A stretch of DNA of 63,942 nucleotides, filler included, from Psammoneis japonica (Eukaryota), in the NCBI GenBank assembly GCA_008632985.1. It is 3 parts of 3 records of this genome, joined end to end, with 100 filler letters (N's around TTAATTAATTAA, not from the genome) between each part and the next. Parts side by side here need not be neighbours in the genome. Positions count along the whole stretch, not along the records: positions 1 to 26,279 come from QPGO01000422.1; 2 more parts are not named here. One strand, given 5' to 3'. The notes under the pieces are model-generated. The model did no database searches. It was not told where the DNA came from and worked only from the letters and a program-made list of their open reading frames with translations. A program made the translations under genes and the position numbers. The stretch's first letter is position 1. Every line of letters begins with the position of its first letter. Below, in pieces: positions 2,797 to 57,896 of this stretch.

Positions 2797-3080
2797 GGTT
2801 GACAGTCTTGCTCATTGTCAACCCATTGAGCAACCGCCATCGTCGTCGTTGATTTACCAACGACGCTGTTTCAATTCTGCGTGGACCTCCGTGTGCACTC
2901 TGCATGCATCGGCAAGTCTACGCGCATTCAATGCCAGGGCATCGGCAGGAAGTTAACGTCACCGTCAAGTCTCCTTGCCGCTGGACATCTGGATTGATTG
3001 CACTGCCTTTGATCGCTGAAGACTTGTGTTCAACGGTCATGTCCAAGTCTGTCCTTGATCAACATCCCTTTTGGGGGGGG

Positions 3081-6000
3081 GCTCTCATTCGCGAAAATGT
3101 GGGGTCCTCTGACGCACAGACCGTCTGCCGCTCCTTGTCTGAATGTGCGCTTGCCTCCACCCGTGCATCTGTCGAGTCCTCCACCCTGCTCGCGCACATC
3201 ACCACCGCACGTCTTGGTGATGGCACTTGGAAAGGTCCGACCCACGGGTTCATCCTTCATTGGCAAGATCAGTTGCACAAGTGCGAGGCACTCATCCCCG
3301 CCAGCGACCACTTCTCTGAAGGACAGAAGCGCGTCATGCTCGAGAATGCCGTGCACCCTGTCGAGGAACTCCGTGCTGTCAAGAACCAAGCTGATCAGCA
3401 TCGCACGCAGAGTGGCAAGAGCCTCACATGCGATCAATGCTGTGGGTTGCTCCTCTCCATGGCAGCTCAGTGCGACAGCACGTTTCAACCCAAGACGACA
3501 CCTCGAGCTCCCCGACGCGCCATGTGCGCACACGACGTCTGCTCCGAGGAACCGTCCGACAATGTGTTCTACGACATTGACAGCGACGTTGACGTCCTTC
3601 AAGCCAATGCTGCCTGCACCCGTGGTCCCAGCCTCACTGGTGTCCAATGGAGACGTCTCCCTCCCGACCACCAACGGCTCTGGGATTCGTTGCCCGATTC
3701 CTCCAAGGCGATCATCCTTGAGCACTCTCGTCCGCCTCCCCGCAACCCGCGAGCCAGCAACTGCCATGAGTCTGTTACGGCCAACCTTCACGACCAACAC
3801 CTTGGGAGTGACGGTGATGTCAACTTGTCCAACACGACTCCTGCTGACTGTGGTGACTCCGCTGCACATGTGGATGCCATTTCGGACAATCCTGTCCTGG
3901 CGCACCTCACCAAGCGCAAGCCACTGCCACCCGGTGATCTGCAACATCTGTTGTCTCCCAACCAAGCCCCCAATGCCAGTCGACCGGGGCCATCCGCCGC
4001 TTCCTCTACCCCGCCAGCTTCTGCAGATGACATGGAACTTAACGGCCGCACTTGCCGCCGCGTCAACAACCACAATGTCATTTGCTCTGCCTCTGCTCAT
4101 CGCTCCACACGCACTGGCGCTCTAGTCGATCGTGGGGCCAACGGCGGCATTGCTGGCGACGACGTCCGCGTCATCGCACGCACCTCTTGCCAAGTCGACG
4201 TTCAGGGCATTGACGATCATCAATTGGTGGACATCCCCATTGTCACCGCTGGTGCCGTCATTGAGACCCAGCGTGGTCCCGTCATCGCCATCCTCCATCA
4301 GCACGCATGCACGGGAAAGGGCAAGACCATCCATTCCTGTGGCCAGCTCGAATGGCACAAACAGGATGTCAACGATCGCTCTGTCAAGGCGCCCAACGGC
4401 TTGCAACGCATTGCCACTCCTGATGGCCATGTCATCCCCATTGACATCAAGGCTGGCCTGCCTCATGTTGCCATGCGACCTTACACTGACGCCGAATGGG
4501 ACACCCTGCCCCATGTCATCCTCACCGGTGATGACACATGGGACCCTTCCGTCCTCGATCACTCTGTCACTGACGACGACCAGTGGTGCGACGCGATCTC
4601 TGACCTGCAGGACGATCCCACTGCCAACCCATTTGACGAATGCGGCAACCACCGCCGCCGTGTCGTTGTCAGCGAGACCATCTTGTCCGCTTCCTTGTCT
4701 GCCGATCACGCGTCCACCCTCGATGATCACCTCATTCCGAACGACGACGTGTTCTACGAGTGTCACATGCATGCGATTGACCCCAAGGGCGATGACGTTC
4801 CACCTCCGGAGCGCACTGCACAGCCCAAGGACCCCCCCTTCGAGTCTCTTCGGCCTCACTTTGGCTTCCCACCTGCCGACACGGTCCGTCGTACTTTTGA
4901 CTGCACCACGCAGTGCGCCCGCATGCCCGCCGGTGCACACCTTCGCAAGGCCTGCAAATCACCCAACCCCGCCCTTAATGTGCACCGCCGCAACGAGCCT
5001 GTCGCCACTGACACCATTTGTGCCGACACCCCGGCCGTCGACTCTGGTTGCACCAGCGCCCAACTGTTTGTTGGCACCGAGTCTACCGTCACTGACGTCT
5101 GCGGCACTAAGACGGACAAAGAGTTTGTCAACACACTCGAGGATCAGATCCGTGAACGTGGTGCCCCATCCAAACTCATTAGCGACCGTGCTCAAGTTGA
5201 GATCAGCAACAAAGTGCTCGGGATCCTGCGCGCCCTCTTCATCTCCAGCTGGCAAAGTGAGCCTCACCAGCAACACCAAAACTTTGCCGAGCGTCGCTGC
5301 CAGACCGTGAAGCGCATGGCGAACACTGTCATGGACCGTTTTGGTTCGCCCGCCCACACATGGCTGCTGGCGCTCATGTGCGTGTGCTTCATGCTCAACC
5401 ACACAGCGTCCCCACGTCTCCACTGGCGCACGCCCCTCGAGACTCTCACTGGATCCACCCCGGACATCAGCCCATTGCTTCGCTTTCACTGGTGGGAACC
5501 AGTGCACTTCCACCTCGATGACTCCGATTGGCCGTCCGAATCCCGTGAGTTGCGCGGACGCTTCGTTGGCATTGCTGAGCACATCGGCCACCAGATGACC
5601 TTCAAGATCCTTTCTGACGAGACTCAAAAGATCCTCTGCTGGTCCAACGTTCGCTCCGCTGCCCCCGATCCTGCTGTTCGAAACCTGCGTCTTGATCCTC
5701 CTGATGGGGAGCCACCTGAACCCATCATCAAATCTCGCCATGACGACAACCCCGTCGATTCTCCTGATGGGGAGATCAGGACACCCAAGATGCCAGTTTT
5801 CGATCCGCAAGACATCATTGGACGCACCTTCCTCATGCAGCCACAAGAGGACGGACAACGCCACAGAGCTCGCATCGTCAAGGCCGTCGAAGACCACGAA
5901 TGGAAAGTGAACGGCAATCCCGAGCTCACTAAGTTCGTCTGCTCTGTCAACAATGACGAATACGAGGAAGTCCTTGCCTGCAATGACATCATGAATCACA

Positions 6001-8102
6001 TTGAGCAAGAAGACGAAGACACCACTGTTTGGAAATTTCGACGCATCGTGTCACACGAAGGACCTCTGAAGCCTCACGACCCAACCTGGAAAGGCTCAAG
6101 CTACAACATCATGCTTGAATGGGAAAGTGGGGAGATCACGTCCGAGCCTCTTGCCATCATCGCCAAGGACGACCCCGTCACCTGTGCCATCTATGCACGA
6201 GAGAACGGACTCCTCGACACGGATGGATGGAAGCGGTTCCGCACTGTCGCGAGGCGCCAAAAGAAACTGTTTCGCATGGCCAACCAAGCCAAGCTTCGCT
6301 CCTTCCGCACTGCACCTCGCTGCAAGTGCGGGTGCGAAGTTCCCCGGAACTACAAACACGCCATGTCACTGGACGAACGCAACGGCAACCGCAAGTGGGG
6401 AGACGCAACTAATCTCGAGATGGACCAACTCGACGAATGCGAAGTCTTCCATGACTGCGGGCCCTTCAAGTCTTCCACTCCTCCTGCGGGACACAAGAAG
6501 ATCCGAGTGCACCTGGTGTACGACGTGAAACACGACGGTTGCCACAAGGCACGACTCGTAGCCGACGGGCACCTCACGGACGTACCCATCGACAGTGTCC
6601 ACTCCGGAGCAGTCTCCCTTCGTGGCCTTCGGCTGATGATTTTCCTGGCCGAACTCAACGAGCTGGAGACATGGGCCACCGACATTGGCAATGCCTGCCT
6701 TGAGGCCACCACCAAGGAGAAGCTTTACATTGCAGCTGGACCCGAATTTGGCAAACTCGAAGGACACATCCTTGTCATCCACAAGGCACTGCATGGACTG
6801 TGCAGCTCCGGTCTCCGCTGGCACGAACGCTTCGCCGACTGCCTGCGAGCTGAAGGCTTCTTCCCCTGCCGCGCCGAACCCGACATTTGGATGCGCAGGA
6901 ACGGCGACCACTGTGAATACATTGCCGTTTATGTGGATGACCTCGCCATTGCCATGAAGGACCCTCAACCTTTCGTCGACACTCTCACGGAAAAGTGCAA
7001 GTTCAAGCTCAAGGGCACGGGACCCATTGAGTTCCATCTGGGTTGCGACTTTTCCCGGGACCCCGACGGAACCTTGTGCCTGTCTCCGCGCAAGCACATC
7101 GAGCGCATGGTCGACAGCTGCGCCCGACTGTTTGGGGAGAAACCTGCCACCAACGCCCTGTCACCTCTAGAGAAGGGTGACCACCCCGAACTGGACACTT
7201 CCGAACTGCTGGGACCCGATGGCATTCACAAGTTCCAGTCTCTTGTTGGTTCACTCCAATGGGCAGTGTCCCTTGGTCGAATTGACATCACCACGGCCGT
7301 CATGTCACTCTCTAGCTTCCGAGCTGCGCCCCGTCAAGGCCACTTGGATCGTGCCAAACGCGTCTGTGGGCACCTCTCCAAGATGCGACACGGTGCTCTC
7401 CGCGTTCGCACGGAAGAGCCCGACTGTTCGGATCTCCCTGCTCCGGCCTGTGAATGGATGCATTCCGTGCATGGTGAAGCAGAAGAGATGATCCCGAAGG
7501 ACGCTCCACCGCCCCTTGGCAAGTTCGTCACTGCCACCCACTGCGTCGATGCAAACTTGCACCATTGCATGCTCACCGGACGCTCTGTCATGGGAATGCT
7601 CCACTTCCTCAACAAATTCCCGGCTGATTGGTTCTCCAAGAAACAAGCCACCGTGGAGACTGCAACCTGCGGGTCTGAATTTGTTGCCGCAAGGAATTGT
7701 GTTGAGCAGATTGTCGACCTGCGCATCACCCTGCGCTGCCTTGGCGTCCCGATCCGTAATGTCAGTTACATGTTCGGTGACAACAAGTCGGTTGTAGACA
7801 GTGCCACCATCCCGCACTCCAAGTTACACAAGCGACACACCGCACCATCGTTCCACCGTGTGCGTGAGGCAATTGCCTCTGGTTGCCTTGAGTTCCACTT
7901 CATCGAAGGCTCCCGCAACCCTGCTGACATTCTCAGCAAGCATTGGGGTCACTCCCAAATCTGGGACCTTCTCCGCCCCCTCATGTTCTGGAACTTCATT
8001 CCATCCGAAGTCGAATCTGTTTCTGTGGCTCCTCAAGCAAACTGGGGAGTGACAGGATTTGAACAGGATTTGGATGCGCGCGAAGTGTCGCGCGCTGTTT
8101 AG
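3081..8102 (+). pseudogene. Copia gag-pol (N-terminally deleted, open but Tyr-depleted)
   Basis: LVDRGANGG protease, VATDT/SDRAQVE integrase, KARLVA/DIGNAC/YVDD RT, DANL/GSEF/GDN RNaseH; many conserved Tyr are Cys/His. Confidence 0.93.
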
Positions 8103-8325
8103 TTTACCGCGCACAGTTTTGTGTGCTTTAGTTCCGCGCGTTCACGCGCGATGCAGTTTGCTTTCGAGCCACAAGGCTCACAAGAATAACAACAGTGGCC
8201 CGATTACACCGACTTGCACGTCTTTCGGCTCCTGCAACGGTCTCTGAGCGGAGACTCATCTGCCATTTAGACAGCAGCAAGGAGTTGTTGTTTGAATTCT
8301 TGCCATTTGCCTTCAATTTCTGTCA
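8050..8325 (+). repeat. 3' LTR of copia copy 1
   Basis: Direct repeat of 2521-2796, preceded by PPT. Confidence 0.97.
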
Positions 8326-11300
8326 GAATGGGACACCCTGCCCCCACGTCATCCTCACCGGTGATGACACATGGGACCCTTCCGTCCTCGATCACTCTGG
8401 TCACTGACGATGACCAGTGGTGCGACGCGATCTCTGACCTGCAGGACGATCCCACTGCCAACCTATTTGACGAATGCGGCAACTACCGTCACCGTGTCGT
8501 TGTCAACGAGACCATCTTGTCCGCTTCCTTGTCTGCCGATCACGCGTCCGCCCTCGATGATCACCTCATTCCGAACGACGACGTGTTCTACGAGTGTCAT
8601 CTGCACGCGATTGACCCCAAGGGCGATGACGTTCCACCTCCGGAGCGCACTGTACAGCCCAAGGACCCCCCCTTCGAGTCTCTTCGGCCTCACTTTGGCT
8701 TCCTACCCACCGATGCGGTCCGTCGTACTTTTGACTGCACCACGCAGTGCGCCCGCATGCCCGCCGGCACACACCTTCGCAAGGCCTTCAAATCACCCAA
8801 CCCCGCCCTTAATGTGCACCGTCGCAACGAGCCTGTCGCCACTGACACCGTTCATGCCGACACCCCGGCCGTCGACTCTGGTTGCACCAGCTCCCAACTG
8901 TTTGTTGGCACCGAGTCTACCGTCACTGACGTCTACGGCACCAAGACGGACAAAGAGTTTGTCAACACACTCGAGGATCAGATCCGTGAACGTGGTGCCC
9001 CATCCAAACTCATTAGCGACCGTGCTCAAGTTGAGATCAGCAACAAAGTGCTCGGGATCCTACGCGCCCTCTTCATCTCCAGCTGGCAAAGTGAGCCTCA
9101 CCAGCAACACCAAAACTTTGCCGAGCGTCGACACCAGACTGTGAAGCGCATGGCGAACACTGTCATGGACCGTTTTGGTTCGCCCGCCCACACATGGCTG
9201 CTGGCGCTCATGTGCGTGTGCTTCACACTCAACCATGCAGCATCCCCACGTCTCCACTGGCGCACGCCCCTCAAGACTCTCACTGGATCCACCCCGGACA
9301 TCAGCCCATTGCTTCGCTTTCACTGGTGGGAACCAGTGTACTTCCACCTCGATGACACCGATTGGCCGTCCGAATCTCGTGAGTTGCGTGGACGCTTCGT
9401 TGGCATTGCTGAGCACGTCGGCCACCAGATGACCTTCAAGATTCTATCTGACGAGACTCAGAAGATCCTCTGCCGGTCCAACGTTCGCTCCGCCACCCCC
9501 GATCCTGCCGTTCGAAACCTTCGTCTTGATCCTCCTGATGGGGAGCCACCTGAACCCATCATCAAATCTCGCCATGACGACAACCCCGTCGATTCTCCTG
9601 ATGGGGAGATCAGGACACCCAAGATGCCAGTTTTCGATCCGCAAGACATCATTGGACGTACCTTCCTCATGCAGCCACAAGAGGACGGACAACGCCACAG
9701 AGCTCGCACCGTCGAAGACCACGAATGGAAAGTGAAGTTCGTCTGCTCTGTCAACAATGACGAATACGAGGAAGTCCTTGCCTGCAATGACATCATGAAT
9801 CACATTGAGCAAGAAGACGAAGACACCACTGTTTGGAAATTTCGATGCATCGTGTCACACGAAGGCCCTCTGAAGCCTCACGACCCAACCTGGAAAGGCT
9901 CAAGCTACAACATCATGCTTGAATGGGAAAGTGGGGAGATCACGTCCGAGCCTCTTGCCATCATCGCCAAGGACGACCCCGTCACCTGTGCCATCTATGC
10001 ACGAGAGAACGGACTCCTCGACACGGATGGATGGAAGCGGTTCCGCACCATCGCGAGGCGCCAAAAGAAGCTATTTCGCATGGCCAACCAAGCCAAGCTT
10101 CGCTCCTTCCGCACTGCACCTCGCTGCAAGCACGGACACGAAGTTCCCCGGAACTGCAAACACGCCATGTCACTAGACGAACGCAACGGCAACCGCAAGT
10201 GGGGAGACGCAACTAATCTCGAGATGGACCAACTCGACGAATACGAAGTCTTCCATGACTGCGGGCCCTTCAAGTCTTCCACTCCTCCTGCGGGACACAA
10301 GAAGATCCGAGTGCACCTGGCGCACGACGTGAAACACGACGGTCGCCACAAGGCACGACTCGTAGCCGACGGGCACCTCACGGACGTACCTGTCGACAGT
10401 GTCTACTCCGGAGTAGTCTCCCTTCGTGGCCTTCGGCTGATGATTTTCCTGGCCGAACTCAACGAGCTGGAGACATGGGCCACCGACATTGGCAATGCCC
10501 ACCTTGAAGCCACCACCAAGGAGAAGCTTTACATTGTAGCTGGACCCGAATTTGGCAAACTCGAAGGACACATCCTTGTCATCCACAAGGCACTGTATGG
10601 ACTCCGCAGCTCCGGTCTCCACTGGCACGAGCGCTTCGCCGACTGCCTGCGAGCTGAAGGCTTCTTCCCCTGCCGCGCCGAACCCGACATTTGGATGCGC
10701 AGGAACGGCGACCACCATGAATGCATTGCCGTTTATGTGGATGACCTCGCCATTGCCATGAAGGACCCTCAATCTTTCGTCGACACTCTCACGGAAAAGT
10801 GCAAGTTCAAGCTCAAGGGTGCGGGACCCATTGAGTTCCATCTGGGTTGCGACTTTTCCCGGGACCCCGACGGAACCTTGTGCCTGTCTCCGCGCAAGTA
10901 CATCGAGCGCATGGTCGACAGCTGCGCCCGACTGTTTGGGGAGAAACCTGCCACCAACGCCCTGTCACCTCTAGAGAAGGGTGACCACCCTGAACTGGAC
11001 ACTTCCGAACTGCTGGGACCCGATGGCATTCACAAGTTCCAGTCTCTTGTTGGTTCACTCCAATGGGCAGTGTCCCTTGGTCGAATTGACATTGCCACGG
11101 CCGTCATGTCACTCTCTAGCTTCCGAGCTGCACCCCGTCAAGGCCACTTGGATCGTGCCAAACGCGTCTGTGGGCACCTCTCCAAGATGCGACACGGTGC
11201 TCTCCGCGTTCGCACGGAAGAGCCCGACTGTTCGGATCTCCCTGCTCCGGCCTACGAATGGATGCATTCCGTGTGCGGTGAAGCAGAAGAGATGATCCCG

Positions 11301-12129
11301 AAGGATGCTCCACCGCCCCTTGGCAAGTTCGTCACTGCCACCCACTGCGTCGATGCAAACTTGTGCCATTGCATGCTCACCGGGCGCTCTGTCATGGGAA
11401 TGCTCCACTTCCTCAACAAATTCCCGGCTGATTGGTTCTCCAAGAAACAAGCCACCGTGGAGACTGCAACCTACGGATCTGAATTTGTTGCCGCAAGGAA
11501 TTGTGTTGAGCAGATTGTCGACCTGCGCATCACCCTGCGCCACCTTGGCGTCCCGATCCGTAATGTCAGTTACATGTTCGGTGACAACAAGTCGGTTGTA
11601 GACAGTGCCACCATCCCGCACTCCAAGTTACACAAGCGACACACCGCACTATCGTTCCACCGTGTGCGTGAGGCAATTGCCTCTGGTTGCCTTGAGTTCC
11701 ACTTCATCGAAGGCTCCCGCAACCCTGCTGACATTCTCAGCAAGCATTGGGGTTGCTCCCAAATCTGGGACCTTCTCCGACCCCTCATGTTCTGGAACTT
11801 CATTCCATCCGAAGTCGAATCTGTTTCTGTGGCTCCTCAAGCAAACTGGGGAGTGACAGGATTTGAACAGGATTTGGATGCGCGCGAAGCATCACGCGCT
11901 GTTTAGTTTACCGCGCACAGTTTTGTGTGCTTTAGTTCCGCGCGTTCACGCGCGATGTAGTTTGCTTTCTAGCCACAAGGCTCACAAGAACAATGACAGT
12001 AGCCCGATTGTGCCGACTTGCACGTCTTTCGGCTCCTGCAACGGTCTCTGAGCGGAGACTCATCTGCCATTTAGACAGCAGCAAGGAGTCATTGTTTGAA
12101 TTCTTGCCATTTGCCTTCAATTTCTGTCA
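8326..12129 (+). mobile_element. Copia copy 2, 5'-truncated (starts just after protease; integrase-RT-RNaseH plus 3' LTR)
   Basis: Begins gaatgggacaccctg (equivalent to ~4494 of copy 1) directly after the copy-1 3' LTR; pol frame open to 11906. Confidence 0.95.
11854..12129 (+). repeat. 3' LTR of copia copy 2
   Basis: 276 bp, same family LTR, PPT upstream. Confidence 0.97.
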
Positions 12130-19929: not shown

Positions 19930-21540
19930 ATGGAGTCATTGCAACAACATTCGTGGCAAGTTTCTGTTCAATTTGTTGTTCCTGTTCAACTTGTTGTTCC
20001 TGCTGGCATGCCCATGAATGCAGTCACGCATCTCATACATGAGACACACACACAAACATGTGTGTGCACAAAGTGTGGGTCGACAATTTTTTTTGCTCAC
20101 ATCTCATGGTGTTGTTTGTGCTCTTCTCTGAGGAGTCAAAGTCAAAAATTATCATTCACATTTTCAATTTCCATTCATTCCATCTGATGGCAAATGACAT
20201 TTTGCCATCCATCTGCACACCCTTCCTCCCATGACCTGTGCATTTGGCACTGGGGTGCAGGAGAGTTTTGGTCGCCCTTCTGACTCCTGTGTTGGTGGGG
20301 TGCTGTGACCTGCCTCTGAGAGATCTGCTGTGAACCATTTCTCTCTGTCTTGCAGAGTCTACCAGCTGCTCTGCAATGGAGCTGATCATCAGCTGACATG
20401 TTTGTCAAATCATTTGGCTTCTTGTTTTGTGGCGCCATCTCCACCAACATCATCTCCTGACCCTTTGCAGCACTCAGAGGAGCACTCCCAGTTGGTGCTG
20501 TTGCTGTTCTCTTTTTGTAGAATGCTTTGAATCAGCACACTTTTTTTGGCTTCTTGCTTGTCCAAACATCCAGAGTCCAAGCAACAGCTCCTCTGCAGGT
20601 GAGAGCCCACTGCCGCTCTCATCATGGATTCTGGCAAGCTTCAAGCCATTCCAGAGCACAGCAGCCAGCCAGTGGCAGTGCCAAAAAGGAAATCTGCATT
20701 GCTGGCAGCCAGACAGGTCATGCCACCCACCATGTTTTTTCTGTCTTTTTTGGGCCAGATGTGCTCTTTCGTAAAAAATGAGCATCTGGCACAAGAAGTT
20801 GAGAGAGAGAGCCACCAGATCTGGGTTTGCTTTCAAAAAAAGTGCCTGGAAGAAGGCCAGCTCAATGCCTTGCAAACAAAAAATCACAAAAGCAAAAACG
20901 CCAATGAGCACACAAATGAAGCAACAAAAATGTGGCGCCAAAGCTGTGCTGGACATTTTCGTGGTGCCAAGTGTGATCTCTTGCACACTGTGGCAAGCCA
21001 GGACAAGTCAGCGCACTGCACTCAAGTTGCCACTGGTGCTGGGACATGCACCAGCCACAGCACTGGGTGGCACAGATGTGCTGCACAGCGTGCTTGCAAA
21101 AAAGCCATGTCACACAACTGTTTTTGGGCCTCAAATGGCGGCAACAGCTGCTGCACATGGGCGTTGCCGTTGGCAAAAGAAAAGCAAAGCATTGGCTGGT
21201 GGCAAAGAGACAGCTCCTTCCCTTGGCCAGCATGATGCTGGAGCAGCTGTTGCTGACCTTCATGACATGGGCGGTGCTTCTCACAATGGCTGCGCGGCCT
21301 GGCTCAGGGTGTGCTCAGCCCCAGATGGGTTGCGCGCACACAAGGGTGTGACGTTGCGCAGAAGAATGGCAAAAAAGACGAGTGACTCGGCAGCTCAAAA
21401 AGTGCAGCTTTGCCGCTTCCACTGAGATCTTGCTTCTCAATCTCCAGACTAAAACATCTTTGCACTGTGGGCCTGATGCTTCCGCTAAACTCTTCCACGT
21501 TCCCTGCAGAACAAGAACATTGCACATCCGCCAACACCAC
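19930..21540. other. TA/CG-depleted degenerate block between two intact genes
   Basis: Almost no TA, few CG, TG/CA-rich; flanks have normal TA. Confidence 0.8.
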
Positions 21541-21819
21541 CTAACAACAACACCTAAATGTTTTGAAACAATTATGACCGGCAATTGATCATCGAAATTC
21601 GGCACTGGCAAAATGACCGTTGACATCAACTTTGAATTTTCAATCAGGTTGTAGTGCGGCAGATATTTATGCCCACTTATTGAGTCCCGTTACGGTCATT
21701 TTTAAATGCGCAAGTCATCGAGTCATTGCAACGGTTGTCCCGGTCACTTTTTGGAGACCATCGCTGAGACACATAAAATTGAAAGAAGTCGAGAATTTCA
21801 GCCGTTGCAATCCTTGACC

Positions 21820-22863
21820 ATGACATGCCGGCAATCGTTCAGCGGCAGGCTGCTGCTTGCTCTCGCTTCCTTCGCGGTCTTTGTCGTCCCCGTTTTCGCC
21901 ATGAACAAGGCTGAGTTGATCGACGCGATTGCGAGTGATTCGGGTCTCAGCAAGGCAGATGCCAAGCGCGCTCTTGACGGTTTCATTGTCGCGACTCAGG
22001 GAGCGCTGAAAAAGGGAGACAGAGTGGCACTAGTTGGCTTTGGCTCCTTTTCAATTTCCAAACGAGCGGCCAGAACCGGACGCAACCCGCAGACAGGCAA
22101 GGAAATCAAGATTGCTGCCAAGAATGTCGTAAGGTTCAAGGCCGGTTCCGAACTTGCTGGTAAAGTAAACAGAGCTCTAAATGAAGAGGTTGCCAAGAGG
22201 GCTGTCACGGGTGAGAACAAGTACACCGAGGTTACAGAAGTTGTTTCTCAAGTGAATCCAGAAGTGACACCAGAAGAAGATGGCGTCTGCAGCCACGGTT
22301 GGGGCACGGTTCTCGCCGAGCAGGGCATTCGCATCTCTGCGAGCCTTCGATTCCTTCCGGCGTTTGCCAAGGTAATTGTAAGGGCTATCAAATCAGGCGA
22401 GGATGTCGACATTGCGAATTTTGGTGTTTTCGGAGCTTTACAAGAGGGCGATTCTTTGTCCACATCCTTTGAGGCGTATCCCGAGTTTGCTGTCCCAGTC
22501 TTGCGCGGCATCAACGAACAATATTTCAATCTCATGAGGCTCGAGCTAAAGGTAATATCACACGGTGACCACAGCATTTCTGATTTGACGTCTTGTGTAC
22601 TTCAAATGGCTGTGCTTTCGAAAGAATACGGCGACGAATTGATGCTCGAGAGAATTGCGAAGATTCAAAAAGAAGTCATGGCGGACAAGGACGGCCTTGT
22701 CGAGTTTTATAGAAAGTGTCGGGAGCCGGCAGTTGATAGAAAAGTTCGCAGGGAATGTAAAAATGGTGCTGCAGGTACGAGAGTACGAAAAGCAATGCAG
22801 GAGTTGAAGAACTTGTCACAAGACATTCGAAAGGAAGTTCAAAACAAAAAGAACAACGGTTGA
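21820..22863 (+). CDS. hup: Signal peptide + HU (DNABII) + degenerate HU + Hc1 histone-H1-like fusion protein, 347 aa
   Basis: 21820-21900 hydrophobic leader ending VFA; 21901-22170 [11 protein letters not shown]...[12 protein letters not shown]...[25 protein letters not shown]; second motif [17 protein letters not shown]-terminal [31 protein letters not shown]. Confidence 0.92.
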
Positions 22864-23059
22864 GCATTATACAGAATCGGAGCGAAAGCGCCTTGGACCC
22901 TATCGTCTTAATATCAAACGGAGCGATAGCAAGAGTACGTTGTGACAACTCATATTACTGTATCCAGTCTCTTCTTATTGAGTAGATGCTTTGCTTGGCA
23001 TTCGTGCCCATAACAGATGCGGGTTTGCTTCTTACCGACTTTTTTACGACACCCGAGAA

Positions 23060-23531
23060 TGCTATACGCACTCCCGCCGAGTCGCAACAGAGCTTGAGTC
23101 AAGTTGTATTGCCTGGTGATTGTCATTCGAGCGGCGTCGCGTTTGTAGGCTGTGTTATGAAACTCATGGACAATGCAGCGGGTTGTTCGGCCATTCGTCA
23201 CCGCCGCACCAATGTTGTTACCGTCGCAATTTCCGCCATGGATTTTGTCCACTAGATTCATCTCGGTGAGATCTGTACCATTCAATCCCTGGTTGTCTTT
23301 TGTTCCGACAAGACTCTGGAGATAGAGGTGGTTGCGTCGACTGTCTCTATGCACAGCATTGGCAATGAGGATGATGTGATTGTGGCGAAGGGAAAGTTTG
23401 TGTTTTCTTCGCTCGACAACCATGGAAAAGCCTTTGCTGTTCCGCCTCTCAAATTGGAAACCAAGGAGGATTTCGAAAAAGCTGGAAGCATACAGTGCGC
23501 AGCAGCGGTACGAACAAGCGAAAATGTCTAG
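23060..23531 (+). pseudogene. Acyl-CoA thioesterase (HotDog fold, YciA/ACOT7-like) fragment with in-frame stop
   Basis: SQVVLPGDC...G..MKLMDNAAG.SA.RH.RTNVVTVAI..MDF, TAG at 23253-23255, then in frame IHLGE...LEIEV...G.FVF.SLD..GK...VPPL.LET. Confidence 0.85.
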
Positions 23532-23988: not shown

Positions 23989-26279
23989 CTATTGCTGTTC
24001 CCATGTAAACATGACGGTCCTTCCCTTCAAATTCACGTCACCCGTGTCGTACGTCATTTGTTTCACACTGCCCCAGTCGGTTCCATCCCAGATACAAAAG
24101 CTACCACCCCTGCTGTTGTCCTGGATGGAAAGCATGACGCTTTGGTTAGACGGAGACGCAACAAGACTCATGGAATTGGGAGAATCGCCAAGGTCAGGAC
24201 CGTAGTATTCCCGGGACCACTGATTATTTGACCAAATTCTGTACCGCACCCTGGTGCTACCATCTACTCGATAGGTTGCGAGAGCTTTGCCCGGAAGTCC
24301 GTAAAAGTCCACCGCCACGGCATCAAAGTCAATCTTAATGGACGATGTTGGAGACGCAATTTCTCTGGAATTCCATGACGATCTTCCGTCCCAGATAGCC
24401 AACCACAAGGCATGTTGATTGCTTGTGGTGACTCCAAGGGCTATTCGGTTTGATGTTGCATCCACGCCCAGTGTAAATTGCTTTGCAATACTGTACACGC
24501 CACCTGGAGGCCCAAGGGAATGCTCTCTACTCCACTGGTACCCATCAAAAAGACGGTATAGCACGTCTTGTGTCTTTTTCCCGTATACAACCATGGCTCG
24601 GCCACTCTGTTGCTCATAGGCCACATAAATTGCTTTCATGCTTGCACTTGCATAGTTTCCAAGAACAAATCCATCATCCCATTCATTACCATCCCACACT
24701 ATGCAAAAGTCCGAGTTCTTAAAAGAAGCTCCAGCGAGAATCATCTCATTGGACGATGGATGAGACGCTAAGTACAATCGGTTGTTCGTTCCACTCTTGA
24801 CGGGTGACTCAAGTCGCTTTTCTAAACTCCAATAGTTTCCATTCCAAACGCGATAGTAAATTGCGTCTTCTCCTCCCTTGTTCCACACCAACATTGCATT
24901 CCCACTTTGAGATTCGTAGGCAATGTCAAACCCGTGTCGAAAAGTATTCATTGCATTGGAGTCAAGCGGTGAAAAAGAAATGTCATTCCAGCTGCCATCC
25001 GAGTACATTTGAGCAGTGACTTGGAGATTTTCATTGACTCCCACCACAATTGCTTCATCTCTTGTTGTCGAGAAAGCGCCTCGAATAATAACCCATCTTC
25101 CATAGGTGTTCTTCATGCTATCTACTTTGTCAAACTTGTTTCCGTCCCATAAGCTGTATCCGGGAGGGGAATCGTCACCGTTTACAAAAATCGCAATACC
25201 CCTTTCAGCCTTGCATTTATTACATGCCAAAGGGCAAGCTTCTTCCCCTGAAACCACATTTCCAGATTTTCCTTGCCCATAAAACGAGGAGCAGAAATAA
25301 CCCACGTTCCACTCCCTTAAATCGTCACAGTCGATCCGCGTCCCTTTAGATGACATATACGCCCAACTCAAGTCATCTCTACACAGCAATCCATTTTGCA
25401 CGTTAAATGCCGAAACAGCTCGATCAAACGTGGGGTAGGCTGTGAGAGGAAATGTTGTCGGTGACGGAGTGGGGTTTTTGGTGGGTTGTTTTGTCGGACT
25501 GAGAGTTGGGGAGTTGGACGGAGGCCTTGTGGGCACTTGGGTTAGAGAGATCGTTTGCGACGCGGTTGGCAGTTTGGTGGGTGATAACGTTGGTTGTTTT
25601 GTCGGACTGAGAGTTGGGGAGTTGGACGGAGGCCTTGTGGGCATATGGGTTGGAGAGGCCGTTGGCGACATGGTTGGCAGTTCGGTGGGTGATGATGTTG
25701 ACTGTATTGTCGGAGTGAGAGTTGGATAGTTGGATGGAGGCATTGTGGGCACTTGGGTTGGAGATGCCGTTGGCGACATGCTTGGCAGTTCAGTAGGAAG
25801 AGGCGTAGGAGCCGCAAGCATTGGGAGAGGGGTGTCTGGAAGAAATGCATCTGGATCGCATAAACCGCAGGTGACTGGACAGGCTTGAGAGCCTCTCGTT
25901 GGCTGTCCCCTTGCATCGAAACCCATAAGCTTGCACCTCTGTGATTTTTTGTCCTTGAGGTATCGGCAGGTCTTGTCGATTCCCTTCTTTGTTGTAAAAA
26001 CCCAATCTTTATCGTCAATACAAGGCTCAGATGAAGGTCGGGTCATTGTTTTATCTTGAACCGTTGGCAATCTAGACGGAGCAATAGATGTTGGGACTGG
26101 AACGTCATCCGTGGCCGTTGGAGGCCCAAAGATGGTACTTTCCGAACGCGCAAAGGTACCACCGGTCTTTTCGAGCTTTCCATCATAGTACAATTGGTAG
26201 GAGCCCGCCCCATAAGTACAACACATTCCATCACTTTCTAAGTCTCGAATTGTAAATGTGTATGTATCTTGTGGCAAGC
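23989..26279 (-). CDS. Extracellular multidomain protein, 5' end lost in the gap: DGMCC module, two ShK-like Cys modules, Pro/Thr repeats, C-terminal WDG/WNG-repeat domain
   Basis: 762-aa open frame; YTFTIRD..SDGMCC.YG.GSY; ACPVTCGLC and ACPLACNKC; PTxSPT repeats with 108-bp periodicity at ~25480-25790; repeated AYE..SG.AM.V...YR.W.G..WS. Confidence 0.85.
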
Positions 26280-26380
26280 NNNNNNNNNNNNNNNNNNNNN
26301 NNNNNNNNNNNNNNNNNNNNNNNTTAATTAATTAANNNNNNNNNNNNNNNNNNNNNNNNNNNNNNNNNNNNNNNNNNNNT
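26280..26380. other. Assembly gap with artificial TTAATTAATTAA all-frame-stop linker
   Basis: N run with the 12-mer at 26324-26335; same construct at 52643-52742. Confidence 0.98.
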
Positions 26381-32469: not shown

Positions 32470-35400
32470 TCAGTCGTTAAACGGCATTGTTCGATGAACA
32501 TTGACAGTGTCAATGACGTTGCCGCGTTTGATCTGCGCTGTGCCATTGGTGTGTGCCATTGTCATTGCACACGGTCCAACACAGGGCTGTTCTAATTTTT
32601 GCGAGTCTTTCTCAAGTGGCATCTTTTCTCCTGCTCTGTGCGTGTGAGGAGCACGTCGAGCATTCTCTCGAGCGTCATTTTTATTTGTGATTTCTTGTTT
32701 TCGCTGCTGGATTAATTTCCAGTCCGCGACATGTTGGACGTCAAATGTCATGTCTCTGTTGAAGACCAGTTGTCCTGGTGCAGCTTGCGTGGTGGCATGA
32801 TGCGCAGAACGTGCCGCAAACGCTGCTGCTGACAGCACTCCAGCGAAAGGATCCTCAGCATCTAGAGGTGTGTGTTGCAAATCAAATGTGCGGAGCATGT
32901 TCCCCAGCACTTGATGCACGCGTTCAACAATTGCGTTTGCTTGTGGATTTCGTGCAGTCACAGGCTTGACTCCAGTGCCACAACCATCTTGCACCATTTC
33001 TCTAAATTGGTGTCCGATGAACTCACTTCCACGGTCACATGCAATTGACGATGGCCAAGGACATCTGCTCAGCCATGTTCGTTCCAGCAGTCCAGCTGCA
33101 GTCATGGACTCCTCATTTGGGATTTCCACAACTTCAAACCATCCGGTTGCTGGATCGATCACAGTCAAACATTTCAGGACTGGGGGTTTTTTCTTTCCCT
33201 TACGACGTATTTTGTATGGCCCAACAAGGTCCACACACAGTCGTTCCCATGGTGCGGATTCTGCGCACTTAGGAGGTAAATGTCCATATTTCTTGTGTTT
33301 CTTTTTGAATTTTTGGCACGTCTCACATCTCGACACGTATTTTCGTATGTCTTCACGTAAGGTGGACCACCATGGGTGTTGTGAGATTGTTTCTTCTGTT
33401 CGATTTATGCCAGGGTGAAGAAGGTGCGTATGATGCCAATCTATCACTGCCTTTTGTAACGTCCTCGGGACGACAATTTTATCCTTATGACATATGAGCA
33501 ACCGGTCTCGCTCGCCTCCACGAAAAGTCTTCGTATGAAACGTCTTATTTGACAATTGGGAGAGAATGTCTTTATCCCGTTTTTGTTCATAATCAAGAAC
33601 TTTGTAATTTAACGGAAAGACATTGTCGTAGGATTTTGGTAGGACCTTTTCAGCTAGCTCTTCTGTGCTGAGGGTTTCCATAGGTTCTATTTTCTTTATA
33701 GTAAGTCGGCTAATCGCGTCTGCGACAATATTTGCCTTGCCCTCAAGGTATATTATTTTGGGACTGTATTCTTCTATTATTAGACGCCAACGCATGACTC
33801 TGTCCGTTGTGAAATTTTTGTGTGTGAGATTTTTGTGATCCGTATATATATTTATCTGTTGGCCAAACAGTATATTTCGGAACTCTTTTAACGTCTCCAC
33901 TATGGACAATAGCTCTTTTTCCGTTGTAGTATAACGCGTCTGCGCTCCATTCAGCTTGCGGCTGTAGAAGGCAATTGGTCGGTTTTTCTGAGTAATAACC
34001 GCCCCCAATTGAGAATTACTAGCATCGGTATATATCTCAAAGGGTATATTAAAATTCGGGTATGATAATAGCATGTCTTTGGAGATGATGCGCTTCATGT
34101 TTTCGAAGGCTTTTTGTTCTGTTTCGGTCCATTGCCACTTTACTTGGGTAGAAGTGAGTTTGGCTAAAGGAGCTAAAACATGAGATCGTCGAGGCCACAT
34201 GTCTCGATAGCAGTTGATCATGCCGATAAAGCGTCGCAATTCCTTGCGAGTTTTAGGAGTTGCGATCGCGCGAATCGCTTCCACTTTTTTTGGAATCGGG
34301 CTGATGCCCTTGCGGGTGACATGAAAGCCTGGGTAGTCTACTTCGGGTTTAGCGAAAAAGGACTTCTCGGCGTTGACCTTCAATCCGGCTTGTTCTAGGC
34401 GTAAGAACACCGTTTCAAGCTTCTTGAGGTGGTCTTGAAAATCGCTTTTTGCAAGACACAACACATCGTCAACACAAGTTCTGACGAACTCCAGACCTGC
34501 CATGAGCTCACTCATGTGCTCTTGGAAAATATCTGGAGCTCCACAGATCCCCATCGGGAGTCCACAGCACTCACATTTGCCCCAAGGCATGACGATCGTG
34601 CACAGGCGACGTGCACGCGGCGTCAATTCGACATGACAGCATCCCATGTTTAAATCTAGGGACGTTGCATGCATGAAGCCTTCAAGCTTCTGTAGCATGT
34701 CCTGAATGTTGGGCAGAGGAAACGGAGCACGAATTAACCTCTCATTCAGCTCACGAAAGTCGGACAAGAACCGAACTCTGCCATTTTTCTTGGGTTGAAC
34801 AAAGGTTGGAGCCGCCCATTCAGAACAATTTGTTTTTCTTGAGACTTTCAACTTGCACAGTCTTTCAACCTCCTTACGAGCAGTCGCCTCCAAGGCTTGT
34901 GGTGCGGGAAATGGTTTGGCATGGTGCGGACTCACGCCCGATTTCAACTTTGGATCCACCGGTTTCCCGGTCCATTTGCCTGGAGAACCATCGAAAAGGT
35001 TTTCAAATCTTTTTAAGAGGAAGTTCAGCTGCTTCTGCTCTTCAGGGGTTAGATGAGTGGCTGCTGCGGTCACATCATTGAGGTTTGCAGCATGACAGTC
35101 TGAGTCAAGGATCCGATTGACCCTGTCATTGAGACTGATCACTGCACGAGATTCCTCAATGTGATCGGCAATCAACTTAAAAACATCGGCATCGAAGAGT
35201 GCACCAACATTCTTCATGGGAGCAATTGCATCTTCCCATTTAATCTCTTCATTCGAGAAGTCCAATGTTGTCCCAAGACTTGACATTGAGTCGCGTCCCA
35301 TGATCACATCATGACGACTCGAAGAAGAAGGGGAGTTGTCAACACATGCCGTTGTTTCAATCATCTCATGTTTGTCAAATTCGGGTGAGGAGAATTGGAT

Positions 35401-35574
35401 CTTACATCGACTGTCAGTCGTGAAGAGCCCTCCTTTGGTTTCCCAGAGTTTGGTGGCGGATGCTTTTGTTCTGAGTTTCCGCGCGAATTTGCGCAAAATT
35501 GTGGTTGACAATGTTCCGCTGTCGAGGAGAACGCGCAGAGGCTCATTTTTCGCCTCACCCAATGAAGCATTCAC
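32470..35574 (-). CDS. Gypsy pol (protease, RT, RNaseH, integrase); open but RT YxDD reads CVDD
   Basis: LLDSG; SDFRELN; LDLNMGCCH; CVDD; YTDAS; TDHKNL; H-H-C-C zinc finger; VDLVGP; CDRGSEF; PQANAIVER. Confidence 0.95.
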   Translation of the reverse strand: MNASLGEAKNEPLRVLLDSGTLSTTILRKFARKLRTKASATKLWETKGGLFTTDSRCKIQFSSPEFDKHEMIETTACVDNSPSSSSRHDVIMGRDSMSSLGTTLDFSNEEIKWEDAIAPMKNVGALFDADVFKLIADHIEESRAVISLNDRVNRILDSDCHAANLNDVTAAATHLTPEEQKQLNFLLKRFENLFDGSPGKWTGKPVDPKLKSGVSPHHAKPFPAPQALEATARKEVERLCKLKVSRKTNCSEWAAPTFVQPKKNGRVRFLSDFRELNERLIRAPFPLPNIQDMLQKLEGFMHATSLDLNMGCCHVELTPRARRLCTIVMPWGKCECCGLPMGICGAPDIFQEHMSELMAGLEFVRTCVDDVLCLAKSDFQDHLKKLETVFLRLEQAGLKVNAEKSFFAKPEVDYPGFHVTRKGISPIPKKVEAIRAIATPKTRKELRRFIGMINCYRDMWPRRSHVLAPLAKLTSTQVKWQWTETEQKAFENMKRIISKDMLLSYPNFNIPFEIYTDASNSQLGAVITQKNRPIAFYSRKLNGAQTRYTTTEKELLSIVETLKEFRNILFGQQINIYTDHKNLTHKNFTTDRVMRWRLIIEEYSPKIIYLEGKANIVADAISRLTIKKIEPMETLSTEELAEKVLPKSYDNVFPLNYKVLDYEQKRDKDILSQLSNKTFHTKTFRGGERDRLLICHKDKIVVPRTLQKAVIDWHHTHLLHPGINRTEETISQHPWWSTLREDIRKYVSRCETCQKFKKKHKKYGHLPPKCAESAPWERLCVDLVGPYKIRRKGKKKPPVLKCLTVIDPATGWFEVVEIPNEESMTAAGLLERTWLSRCPWPSSIACDRGSEFIGHQFREMVQDGCGTGVKPVTARNPQANAIVERVHQVLGNMLRTFDLQHTPLDAEDPFAGVLSAAAFAARSAHHATTQAAPGQLVFNRDMTFDVQHVADWKLIQQRKQEITNKNDARENARRAPHTHRAGEKMPLEKDSQKLEQPCVGPCAMTMAHTNGTAQIKRGNVIDTVNVHRTMPFND

Positions 35575-35670
35575 ACAGGCGACGACTGCTGGACTAGCAT
35601 GAATTGCTTTGGCCCTTTTTCTGGGCTTCCCAATGTCCAGCAGAGCGTGAGACTCCTCTTGCGGTGCAAG

Positions 35671-52642: not shown

Positions 52643-52742
52643 NNNNNNNNNNNNNNNNNNNNNNNNNNNNNNNNNNNNNNNNNNNNTTAATTAATTAANN
52701 NNNNNNNNNNNNNNNNNNNNNNNNNNNNNNNNNNNNNNNNNN
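52643..52742. other. Assembly gap with artificial TTAATTAATTAA linker
   Basis: N44 + 12-mer + N44. Confidence 0.98.
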
Positions 52743-57620: not shown

Positions 57621-57896
57621 TGACAGAAATTGAAGGCAAATGGCAAGAATTCAAACAATGACTCCTCACTGCTGTCTAAACAGCAGATGAGTCTCCGCTC
57701 AGAGACCGTTGCAGGAGCCAAAAGACGTGCAAGTCGGCACAATCGGGCTGCTGTCATCATTCTTGTGAGCCTTGTGGCTCGAAAGCAAACTACATCGCGC
57801 GTGAACGCGTGGAACTAAAGCACACAAAACTGTGCACGGTAAACTAAACAGCGCGCGATACTTCGCGCGCACCCGAATCCTGTTCAAATCCTGTCA
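57621..57896 (-). repeat. 3' LTR of copia copy 4
   Basis: 276-bp reverse complement of the family LTR. Confidence 0.97.

What the first reader, a model, noticed from the sequence alone, without database searches (positions are those of the whole stretch)
21820..22863. Signal-peptide-bearing HU + HU-like + Hc1 fusion: two bacterial nucleoid proteins joined in a eukaryote
SEEN: a 27-aa leader is fused exactly at the retained bacterial start MNKAELIDA of a near-canonical 90-aa HU. A degenerate HU-like segment follows, then a C-terminal [29 protein letters not shown]. The gene is intronless and on the same contig as eukaryotic genes. KNOWN (from recall): the IAAKNVV(K/R)FKAG ending is typical of Bacteroidota [21 protein letters not shown] is the Bacteroidota histone-H1-like Hc1 family; DNABII proteins scaffold extracellular DNA in biofilms. 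INFERENCE: a horizontally acquired chimera routed to the secretory pathway with no obvious transit peptide. It may be an extracellular-DNA or biofilm-matrix binder, an antimicrobial, or an organelle nucleoid protein.
Basis: partly seen in the sequence, partly recalled or inferred. Interest (0 to 1): 0.82.

Follow-up and report, generated by a model that had tools for sequence, protein, structure and literature searches.

The report
Signal-peptide HU plus Hc1 fusion gene
A eukaryotic genome carries an intact, anciently acquired bacterial-type gene that puts a histone-like HU DNA-binding protein, a second crippled HU unit and an Hc1 domain behind a secretion signal, an unusual design whose destination and role are still untested.

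Summary
Window 21820-22863 (+) is one open frame of 347 codons. It encodes a 27-residue signal-peptide-like leader, then a full 90-residue HU domain starting at its own Met. An acidic linker follows, then an armless HU-like unit, a helical stretch and a C-terminal Hc1 domain. The gene lies on gap-free sequence with copia and gypsy retroelements, so it is eukaryotic DNA and not a bacterial contaminant. Its HU part is up to 87-90% identical in protein to bacterial HUs but at most 72% in DNA. Its GC3 is 0.56 against a bacterial median of 0.21, which fits an old, ameliorated, strongly constrained transfer.

First, the leader-to-Met junction was not invented here. It is shared by 11 of 11 related signal-bearing HU proteins, three of which have the same HU...Hc1 layout. 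Second, the Hc1 piece is the conserved N-terminal domain, reported to mediate dimerisation, and not the lysine-rich DNA-binding tail.

Best reading: a single-chain, one-armed HU sent into the secretory pathway, probably to bind or bridge DNA outside the cytoplasm. Expression, localisation and the hosts of the relatives are unknown. Earlier notes of this scan describe exported tandem HUs in prokaryotes, but not this fusion.

The parts
21706..21708 (+). Alternative in-frame upstream ATG. It would add 38 residues before the leader and is probably not the start.
   Evidence: It directly follows a stop and has T at -3. No other ATG lies between it and 21820. Relatives start 17-28 residues before the HU Met.
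21820..22863 (+). Whole coding frame, 347 codons plus the TGA stop. No intron is needed.
   Evidence: It is the only copy in the window (tblastn).
21820..21900 (+). Signal-peptide-like leader, residues 1-27. The predicted cleavage is after VFA, directly before the HU Met.
   Evidence: rule-based only; no SignalP was available. The same junction is found in 11 of 11 related proteins.
21901..22170 (+). Complete HU (DNABII) domain, residues 28-117, with an intact beta-arm (R55, R58, R61 and P63 in HU numbering).
   Evidence: profile 1-90/90, E 5e-37. (the invariant and nearly invariant HU columns are all kept). (Foldseek matches to solved HUs).
22171..22305 (+). Acidic, probably disordered linker, residues 118-162.
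   Evidence: net charge -5 over residues 118-165. (pLDDT below 50 over mature residues 90-154).
22306..22560 (+). Armless HU-like unit, residues about 163-247. It keeps the helix-helix-strand-strand-strand-helix body, but the DNA-inserting arm is reduced to a tight hairpin.
   Evidence: homology to HU positions about 4-58. (secondary-structure order at mature residues 136-220; local pLDDT 45-73). (alignment).
22561..22638 (+). Helical connector, residues 248-273.
   Evidence: predicted helices; pLDDT 45-65, low confidence.
22639..22860 (+). Hc1 conserved domain, residues about 274-347, ending the protein with no lysine/alanine-rich tail. It contains a 14-residue Cys-bounded basic insertion (residues 300-313, window 22717-22758).
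   Evidence: Pfam 314-345. (tblastn matches of bacterial Hc1-like genes reach back to residue 259-276). (small bacterial Hc1 proteins share the preceding helix motif). (Cys positions).

Best explanation
This is a real nuclear gene of a eukaryote, descended from bacterial genes by an old horizontal transfer.

Proposed mechanism:
1. The N-terminal signal peptide sends the protein into the ER and is cut off exactly at the HU Met (inferred).
2. The mature 320-residue protein is a single-chain HU. One complete HU unit and one armless HU-like unit pack together as HU dimers do, which gives a body with a single DNA-inserting arm (inferred; weak model support).
3. The C-terminal Hc1 domain, by homology the dimerising part of Hc1, pairs two such chains (inferred).
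4. The assembly can then hold two DNA segments, and it acts in a secretory or extracellular compartment as a binder or bridger of DNA (inferred).

Shown: the domain content, the eukaryotic context, the bacterial affinity and the strong constraint.
For: - Domains.
- Eukaryotic, gap-free context, with composition like the neighbours (gene GC3 0.53, neighbours 0.43-0.56).
- Old transfer under purifying selection: protein identity to 75 bacterial HU genes reaches 78 of 90, DNA identity is at most 0.72 (median 0.65), and GC3 is 0.556 against a bacterial median of 0.21.
- DNA-contact residues of the HU arm are all kept.
- The leader obeys the n/h/c layout and the -3/-1 rule. The same junction occurs in 11 of 11 signal-bearing relatives.
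- By a crude hydrophobicity or twin-arginine test, 91 of the 120 proteins of similar length have an export-type N-terminus. Several are named haloarchaeal or Nitrospinaceae proteins.
- Relatives P0075 and P0113 carry Cys-rich Asp/Asn repeats, typical of proteins outside the cytoplasm (that reading is my knowledge).
- The mature protein has 4 Cys, two of which bracket a loop in the Hc1 domain.
- HU:HU-like pairing, verdict 'weak support': complex prediction score 0.54, best of 3 controls 0.00. That mark was reached by 51 of 78 solved complexes and 2 of 108 mismatched pairs. At 0.60 or under it was reached by only 5 of those 78, and by all 4 mismatches that passed (of 180). The runs agree in at least 76% of contacts, and the partner pLDDT is at least 60. 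Because HU dimers are solved, this may show likeness only.
- Role of the Hc1 N-domain in dimerisation: passages of PMC2848022.
- Published view that nucleoid proteins have no signal peptide yet act on eDNA outside cells: passage of PMC6011942.
Against: - I have no expression or 5'-end data.
- The signal peptide was judged by simple rules, not by a trained predictor.
- An in-frame ATG at 21706 could give a 65-residue N-terminus, with the hydrophobic stretch acting as a signal anchor.
- The internal Met28 could serve as a start for a leaderless form.
- Neither the 347-, 385- nor 320-residue version is in the 15-billion-protein collection, so no outside gene call backs any start.
- Both AlphaFold models are poor (mean pLDDT 37.5 and 55.3), so the pseudo-dimer is not established.
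- The Hc1 piece lacks the tail that binds DNA in Chlamydia, and its dimerising role here rests on homology alone.
- DNA is not an obvious ligand in a eukaryotic secretory pathway.
- The hosts of the three same-architecture relatives are unknown.
- The HU of this protein is closer to free 90-residue bacterial HUs (80 of 90) than to the HUs of its own family (63-72 of 90), and the family clade has weak support (0.63).
Confidence: 0.45

Rival explanations
1. Organelle nucleoid protein. In a host with a complex plastid, the signal peptide is the first half of a plastid-targeting signal, and the protein compacts plastid (or another organelle's) DNA, like PfHU and the algal HU-like proteins.
For: Known eukaryotic HUs are mostly plastid proteins that carry an N-terminal signal peptide (passages of PMC5499826; abstract of PMC2528193 in the listing). 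A DNA-containing compartment would give the protein an obvious ligand. A Leu-Ala-Ser|Phe-Ala-Val stretch inside the leader loosely recalls the diatom plastid cleavage motif (recalled, not tested).
Against: The leader ends at residue 1 of the HU fold, so there is no transit-peptide-like region, and the residue after the predicted cleavage is Met. The HU is Bacteroidota-like, not cyanobacterial. None of the three same-architecture relatives has an aromatic residue after the junction. I do not know whether the host has a plastid.
Confidence: 0.12
2. Leaderless nuclear or cytosolic chromatin protein. Translation or transcription starts at the HU Met (21901), and the 'leader' is 5' UTR that happens to be open.
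For: Met28 is the ancestral start. No RNA evidence fixes the start. The HU and Hc1 parts are basic (net +9 and +6), which would suit nuclear DNA.
Against: The 27 codons upstream keep a textbook signal-peptide layout with no acidic residue. Equivalent leaders precede the same Met in 11 of 11 relatives despite unrelated leader sequences. ATG 21820 has A at -3 and is the first ATG after 21706.
Confidence: 0.12
3. Endomembrane-retained defence or scavenging factor. The protein stays in the ER, vacuole, lysosome or food vacuole, or acts as a basic antimicrobial. There it binds the DNA of ingested or invading microbes and viruses, or captures eDNA for nutrient recovery.
For: It has the same signal-peptide evidence as the main reading. 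Extracellular and toxic effects of released HU are reported (titles and abstracts in the listing).
Against: There is no retention signal at the C-terminus (it ends Lys-Lys-Asn-Asn-Gly), and no nuclease or other partner gene lies beside it. Nothing separates this reading from plain secretion.
Confidence: 0.15
4. Artefact or dead gene: bacterial contamination, a chimeric assembly, or a decaying transferred fragment.
For: The HU is very bacterial-looking (up to 90% identity). No read-level check was possible. The next gene downstream, a thioesterase-like frame, carries an in-frame stop.
Against: The sequence is gap-free to the retroelements on the left. Composition is host-like, and DNA identity to bacterial HU genes is at most 72%. 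The 347-codon frame is intact with all HU contact residues. The whole length is conserved with P0072 (39% identity over 97% of the protein).
Confidence: 0.04

Closest known systems
Canonical bacterial HU (DNABII, Pfam PF00216), especially 90-residue HUs of Bacteroidota such as Crocinitomicaceae
   Same: Residues 28-117 are a full HU, 83-89% identical to these proteins, with the arm residues intact.
   Different: Canonical HU is a 90-residue cytoplasmic homodimer or heterodimer with no signal peptide (passage of PMC6011942). Here the HU sits behind a signal peptide, is followed by 230 more residues, and is encoded in a eukaryote.
Exported single-chain multi-HU proteins of prokaryotes (haloarchaeal Tat-signal forms; Nitrospinaceae P0091/P0068; unnamed P0014, P0042, P0053, P0095, P0099, P0105, P0120)
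   Same: A signal peptide ends right at an HU Met. Two HU units lie in one chain, and one is often armless or split. In the HU tree P0053, P0099, P0105 and P0120 fall near the family (weak support). Earlier notes of this scan (e1-1543788, e1-1243103) describe the same design.
   Different: Those proteins end in a full HU and have no Hc1. Where one unit is armless, it comes first (P0053, P0091). Here the order is full HU, then armless HU, then Hc1, and the host is a eukaryote.
Hc1 / HctA of Chlamydia and the small Hc1-like proteins of Bacteroidota (Pfam PF07432)
   Same: The last ~74 residues match the conserved Hc1 domain. Identity is 66-77% to small bacterial proteins over the core and 39-49% over the whole domain.
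   Different: Those proteins are stand-alone and 58-125 residues long, and 0 of 160 prokaryotic and viral loci examined are fused to HU. Chlamydial Hc1 binds DNA through a lysine-rich C-terminal tail, which is absent here.
Plastid-targeted eukaryotic HU-like proteins (PfHU of Plasmodium, algal HLPs)
   Same: A nuclear-encoded bacterial-type HU with an N-terminal signal peptide (abstract of PMC2528193).
   Different: Those belong to a plastid/cyanobacterial clade and carry a transit peptide. This HU is Bacteroidota-like, has no transit-peptide region, and has a second HU unit plus Hc1.
Engineered single-chain IHF (PDB 2iif/2iie)
   Same: It is the best-scoring solved sequence for the HU domain and also matches the HU-like unit. 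It shows that two HU-type units can work in one chain.
   Different: It is man-made, both of its units keep their arms, and it has no signal peptide or Hc1.

Membership tests
HU/IHF (DNABII, PF00216) | Full-length match to the family profile above the curated cut-off | tested here: met
   126.5 bits against a cut-off of 22.4, profile 1-90/90, residues 28-117.
HU/IHF (DNABII, PF00216) | Beta-arm with conserved arginines and the intercalating proline | tested here: met
   the invariant or nearly invariant columns R55, R58, R61, N62 and P63 are all present in the first HU unit. They are absent from the second, HU-like unit.
HU/IHF (DNABII, PF00216) | Two-unit (dimeric) body | tested here: inconclusive
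   HU against HU-like scores 0.54, best control 0.00, verdict 'weak support', and the pass may come from memory of solved HU dimers. AlphaFold models are of low confidence.
HU/IHF (DNABII, PF00216) | DNA binding and bending | not testable with these tools
   Needs EMSA or similar.
Hc1 (PF07432) | Match to the conserved Hc1 domain above the cut-off | tested here: met
   47.1 bits against 23.5, profile 25-56/57. P0072 covers profile positions 9-55. tblastn to bacterial genes extends over the whole domain.
Hc1 (PF07432) | Lysine-rich C-terminal DNA-binding tail, as in chlamydial Hc1 | tested here: not met
   The protein ends 2 residues after the domain. The tail's role is taken from PMC2848022.
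Hc1 (PF07432) | Small stand-alone protein | tested here: not met
   Here the domain is the C-terminal part of a 347-residue protein. All 160 prokaryotic and viral Hc1 loci examined are stand-alone.
Exported single-chain multi-HU proteins (not a curated family) | Signal peptide ending at the Met of an HU unit | tested here: met
   11 of 11, including this protein (rule-based).
Exported single-chain multi-HU proteins (not a curated family) | Two HU units in one chain | tested here: met
   The second unit is armless and below the Pfam cut-off in this protein, but it passes in P0072.
Plastid-type eukaryotic HU | Affinity to cyanobacterial/plastid HU | tested here: not met
   Anabaena HU 61.9 bits, against E. 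coli HU-beta 96.4. Bacteroidota-type HUs about 150 bits. No plastid HU sequence was available for a tree.
Plastid-type eukaryotic HU | Bipartite leader with a transit peptide | tested here: not met
   The leader is 27 residues and abuts HU residue 1. ASAFind/HECTAR could not be run.

The most novel reading that the evidence does not exclude
A eukaryote has domesticated a bacterial exported-HU module and secretes a self-pairing, one-armed HU-Hc1 protein. This protein binds and cross-links extracellular DNA, for example to build, stabilise or hijack the eDNA scaffold of the bacterial biofilm around the cell, or to capture eDNA at the cell surface. That would make it the first eukaryote-encoded counterpart of the DNABII matrix proteins of bacteria, and it would belong to a small, previously undescribed family (with P0072, P0075 and P0113).
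Probability: 0.3. Interest if true: 0.85.

Novelty: new variant of a known kind. Interest (0 to 1): 0.62.

Why it matters
HU and IHF hold together the extracellular DNA of bacterial biofilms, yet the literature I read says that nucleoid proteins have no export signal (PMC6011942).

This gene belongs to a little-described set of HU proteins that do carry one. It shows that such a design has been taken up and kept under selection by a eukaryote, with an added Hc1 pairing domain. If the protein is secreted, it gives a direct experimental handle on how a eukaryote handles DNA outside its cytoplasm, whether in microbe-host surfaces, DNA scavenging or defence.

It is also a clean case of an old bacterium-to-eukaryote transfer in which the bacterial signal peptide position was retained.

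Tried and rejected
- RNA evidence: no RNA holder was listed for window 21400-23100, so read laying could not be used.
- Own genome: none is held.
- Word-indexed protein search on residues 118-347: no hit at E<=0.01, although the exhaustive search found P0072. I treat as a miss of the word index.
- Metagenome scan with the family alignment: it picked HU N-terminal patterns and returned only ordinary 90-residue HU genes without leaders (80 of 80). The contigs of P0072, P0075 and P0113 were therefore not obtained, and their hosts stay unknown.
- ESM Atlas: no usable hit for the protein. The copia polyprotein gave no informative taxa.
- Cluster look-ups: no names or accessions for the relatives. 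The 347-, 385- and 320-residue versions of this protein are not in the collection.
- First AlphaFold run on 4 sequences: unusable (pLDDT 37.5).
- A 68-sequence mixed alignment (A3): it misaligned the Hc1 proteins onto the HU arm and was dropped.
- Foldseek on the second model: only HU hits to the first unit.
- Literature: four searches found no paper on an HU in diatoms or stramenopiles with Hc1, or on a signal-bearing HU in eukaryotes other than plastid forms (searches gave 0 papers; none of the 10 listed holds PF00216). Searches gave nothing closer.
- Supplement of PMC5499826: it may list stramenopile HUs but could not be read.
- Rejected idea, one donor genome for both domains: the 5 genomes with the closest Hc1 have HU matches of only 32-38% identity, and the 5 sampled Bacteroidota genomes with the closest HU (73-82%) show no Hc1 (0 of 5). 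These samples are small.

Full report
**What is there.** The plus strand of window 21820-22863 holds one uninterrupted frame of 347 codons ending in TGA.
- Pfam finds a complete HU domain: Bac_DNA_binding at residues 28-117, profile 1-90 of 90, E 5e-37.
- Pfam also finds an Hc1 domain at the C-terminus: PF07432 at residues 314-345, E 2.2e-12, 47.1 bits against a cut-off of 23.5.
- NCBIfam places the first domain nearest HU-beta, but below the equivalog cut-off.
- The 27 residues before the HU Met have two basic and no acidic residues, a strongly hydrophobic core, and Val and Ala at -3 and -1. This is a classical signal peptide by rule. I had no trained predictor.

**The middle of the protein.**
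- Residues 118-162 are acidic and modelled as disordered.
- Residues about 163-247 are a second, degenerate HU unit. Taken alone it scores below the Pfam cut-off (E 0.0049, 17.5 bits). The same segment of the relative P0072 passes (26.8 bits, E 6.3e-6).
- A profile of the four family members matches solved HU 5lvt at E 2.1e-4 over HU positions 6-58. It also matches the engineered single-chain IHF.
- The alignment shows that the long DNA-inserting arm, with its Arg-Asn-Pro motif, is replaced by a short hairpin.
- The second AlphaFold model gives helix-helix-strand-strand-strand-helix for this unit, but its overall confidence is low (mean pLDDT 55.3, pTM 0.27).
- A pairing test of the HU unit against the HU-like unit gave 'weak support': score 0.54, best of three controls 0.00. 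The tool's calibration says this mark was reached by 51 of 78 solved complexes and 2 of 108 mismatched pairs. At 0.60 or under it was reached by only 5 of those 78, and by all 4 mismatches that passed (of 180). The runs agree in at least 76% of contacts and the partner pLDDT is at least 60. HU dimers are solved, so this may reflect likeness only.

**The Hc1 part.**
- Bacterial Hc1-like genes align not only to the Pfam core but back to residue 259-276.
- The small bacterial proteins share the preceding helix motif. The whole conserved domain is therefore present, interrupted by a 14-residue basic loop bounded by two cysteines.
- The protein stops two residues after the domain.
- According to PMC2848022 (passages read), chlamydial Hc1 has a conserved N-terminus that mediates dimerisation and a lysine-rich C-terminus that binds DNA.
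- In bacterial homologues that have tails, the lysine/alanine tail follows the conserved domain (P0136; L137, L142 and L145).
- What is fused here is thus the conserved, putatively dimerising domain, not the DNA-binding tail. No solved structure matched this part by sequence.

**Is it eukaryotic and real?**
- The window holds four RVT_2 (copia-type) polyprotein frames, a gypsy-type RT/RNase H/integrase frame and an ankyrin gene.
- The only N runs are four 44-base pieces at 26280-26379 and 52643-52742. The gene is therefore joined without a gap to the copia elements at 2853-11906.
- Gene GC is 0.498 and GC3 is 0.53, within the range of neighbouring frames (GC3 0.43-0.56).
- I compared the HU segment with 75 bacterial HU genes from fetched loci. 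Protein identity reaches 78 of 90, but DNA identity is at most 0.72 (median 0.65). GC3 is 0.556 against a bacterial median of 0.21.
- That pattern means an old transfer, ameliorated to the host, with the protein held nearly constant by selection. It argues against both contamination and a decaying fragment.
- The gene is single-copy in the window.

**Relatives.**
- Among proteins of similar length, most hits are two-HU proteins of 200-280 residues. Many are named as haloarchaeal HU-family proteins, and one pair is from a Nitrospinaceae MAG.
- A crude test finds a hydrophobic or twin-arginine N-terminus in 91 of the 120.
- Three proteins have the same layout as the window protein (signal, HU, HU-like, helical region, Hc1). 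They are P0072 (366 residues, 39% identity over 97% of the query), P0075 (477) and P0113 (482). P0075 and P0113 carry an extra Cys-rich Asp/Asn repeat block.
- Seven more proteins (P0014, P0042, P0053, P0095, P0099, P0105, P0120) have a signal peptide and two HU units, one of them split or armless.
- In all 11, the leader ends with small residues at -3 and -1 directly before an HU Met.
- An exhaustive search of 1.84 billion representatives with residues 118-347 gave only 21 hits. P0072 was the only one covering the middle region (E 1.4e-13), and 18 were small Hc1 proteins.
- None of 160 prokaryotic and viral Hc1 loci is fused to HU. The fusion is therefore rare.
- I could not obtain DNA for P0072, P0075 or P0113, so whether they are eukaryotic is open. 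Their longest contigs are short (1.7, 3.4 and 10.3 kb).

**Donor affinities.**
- The HU unit is 83-89% identical to 90-residue HUs. Nine of the 120 listed short hits carry organism names: 4 Crocinitomicaceae, 2 Bacteroidota/Bacteroidetes, 1 Lentimonas, 1 Psychromonas and 1 'bacterium'.
- In a sample of 401 Bacteroidota genomes, 194 have a match at E<=1e-20, the best at 82%.
- Anabaena HU scores far lower than E. coli or Bacillus HU (61.9 against 96.4 and 90.2 bits).
- The Hc1 unit's best genome matches are, by record title, 68 of 80 Bacteroidota (mostly Cytophagales), 5 Rhodothermales, 4 other phyla and 3 unnamed. Assigning genera to phyla is my knowledge.
- The two domains do not point to the same genomes. 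Five genomes with close Hc1 have only 32-38% HU matches. Five sampled genomes with the closest HU have no Hc1.
- In an HU-domain tree of 178 units, the four family members fall in a 17-tip group with other signal-bearing HUs and some free HUs, at support 0.63. The window HU is closer to free HUs (80 of 90) than to its family's HUs (63-72 of 90). The history is unresolved.

**How it most likely works.**
- Shown: a eukaryotic gene encodes a leader, a full HU, an armless HU and the Hc1 conserved domain, under strong constraint.
- Inferred: the leader directs ER entry and is cleaved at 27/28. The two HU units pack within the chain into an HU-type body with one arm. The Hc1 domain pairs two chains. 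The resulting particle binds or bridges DNA in a secretory or extracellular compartment.
[quoted passage not shown] A survey of the HU superfamily describes eukaryotic HUs only as plastid forms, CCDC81 forms and a few late transfers, with no mention of Hc1 or secretion in its main text (PMC5499826, passages; supplement unreadable).
- I give the secreted/lumenal DNA-binder reading 0.45. The rivals are plastid or other organelle 0.12, leaderless nuclear form 0.12, retained defence/scavenging form 0.15, and artefact or dead gene 0.04.

**Open points.**
- There are no expression data (see Tried and rejected).
- The start codon is inferred from homology. The in-frame ATG at 21706 has T at -3 and would put 38 residues before the leader. 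ATG 21820 has A at -3.
- The host lineage is unknown to me, which limits any statement on plastid targeting.

**Verdict.** This is a new variant of a known kind: an exported single-chain HU, here with an Hc1 domain and in a eukaryote. Interest 0.62.

Noticed in passing
window 22986-23531 (+): A thioesterase-like frame lies just downstream. The first piece matches Pfam 4HBT positions 2-41 (E 9.1e-5) and stops at an in-frame TAG at 23256-23258. The frame then continues open to 23531. It may be a pseudogene, a sequencing error, a tiny intron or a recoded stop.
   Followed up: partly
window 23989-26277 (-): A 762-residue frame with long Pro/Thr/Ser-rich repeats and Cys-containing modules has no Pfam family (only a faint PT-repeat hit). 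Its upstream end abuts the N run at 26280.
   Followed up: partly
window 2853-11906, 32470-35670, 47396-52279, 57844-62969: The gene sits in a retroelement-dense region. There are four copia-type (RVT_2) polyprotein frames, GC-richer than the rest (0.56-0.59), and one gypsy-type RT/RNase H/integrase frame.
   Followed up: partly
window 26280-26379 and 52643-52742: N runs come as two pairs of exactly 44 bases, 12 bases apart. They look like masked stretches rather than scaffold gaps.
   Followed up: no
viral loci L161-L240 (for example L170, L172, L192): Small stand-alone Hc1-domain genes occur on 80 viral contigs, some of 250-434 kb. A 2025 paper on large aquatic phages also mentions Hc1/PF07432 (PMC12619734, seen in a search listing only).
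   Followed up: partly
proteins P0075, P0113, P0053, P0099, P0105: Signal-bearing HU proteins of two different layouts share Cys-rich Asp/Asn repeat blocks that match no Pfam family at E<=0.01. This hints at module shuffling within one pool of exported HU proteins.
   Followed up: no
protein P0072 (HU unit, residues about 85-100): The closest full-length relative has a shortened HU arm that lacks the intercalating proline. DNA kinking may therefore not be conserved across the family.
   Followed up: no
genomes G001-G005 and G092, G104, G108, G112, G367: In the small samples searched, Bacteroidota genomes with the closest Hc1 have only distant HU matches to this protein (32-38%). Those with the closest HU show no Hc1 (0 of 5).
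   Followed up: partly
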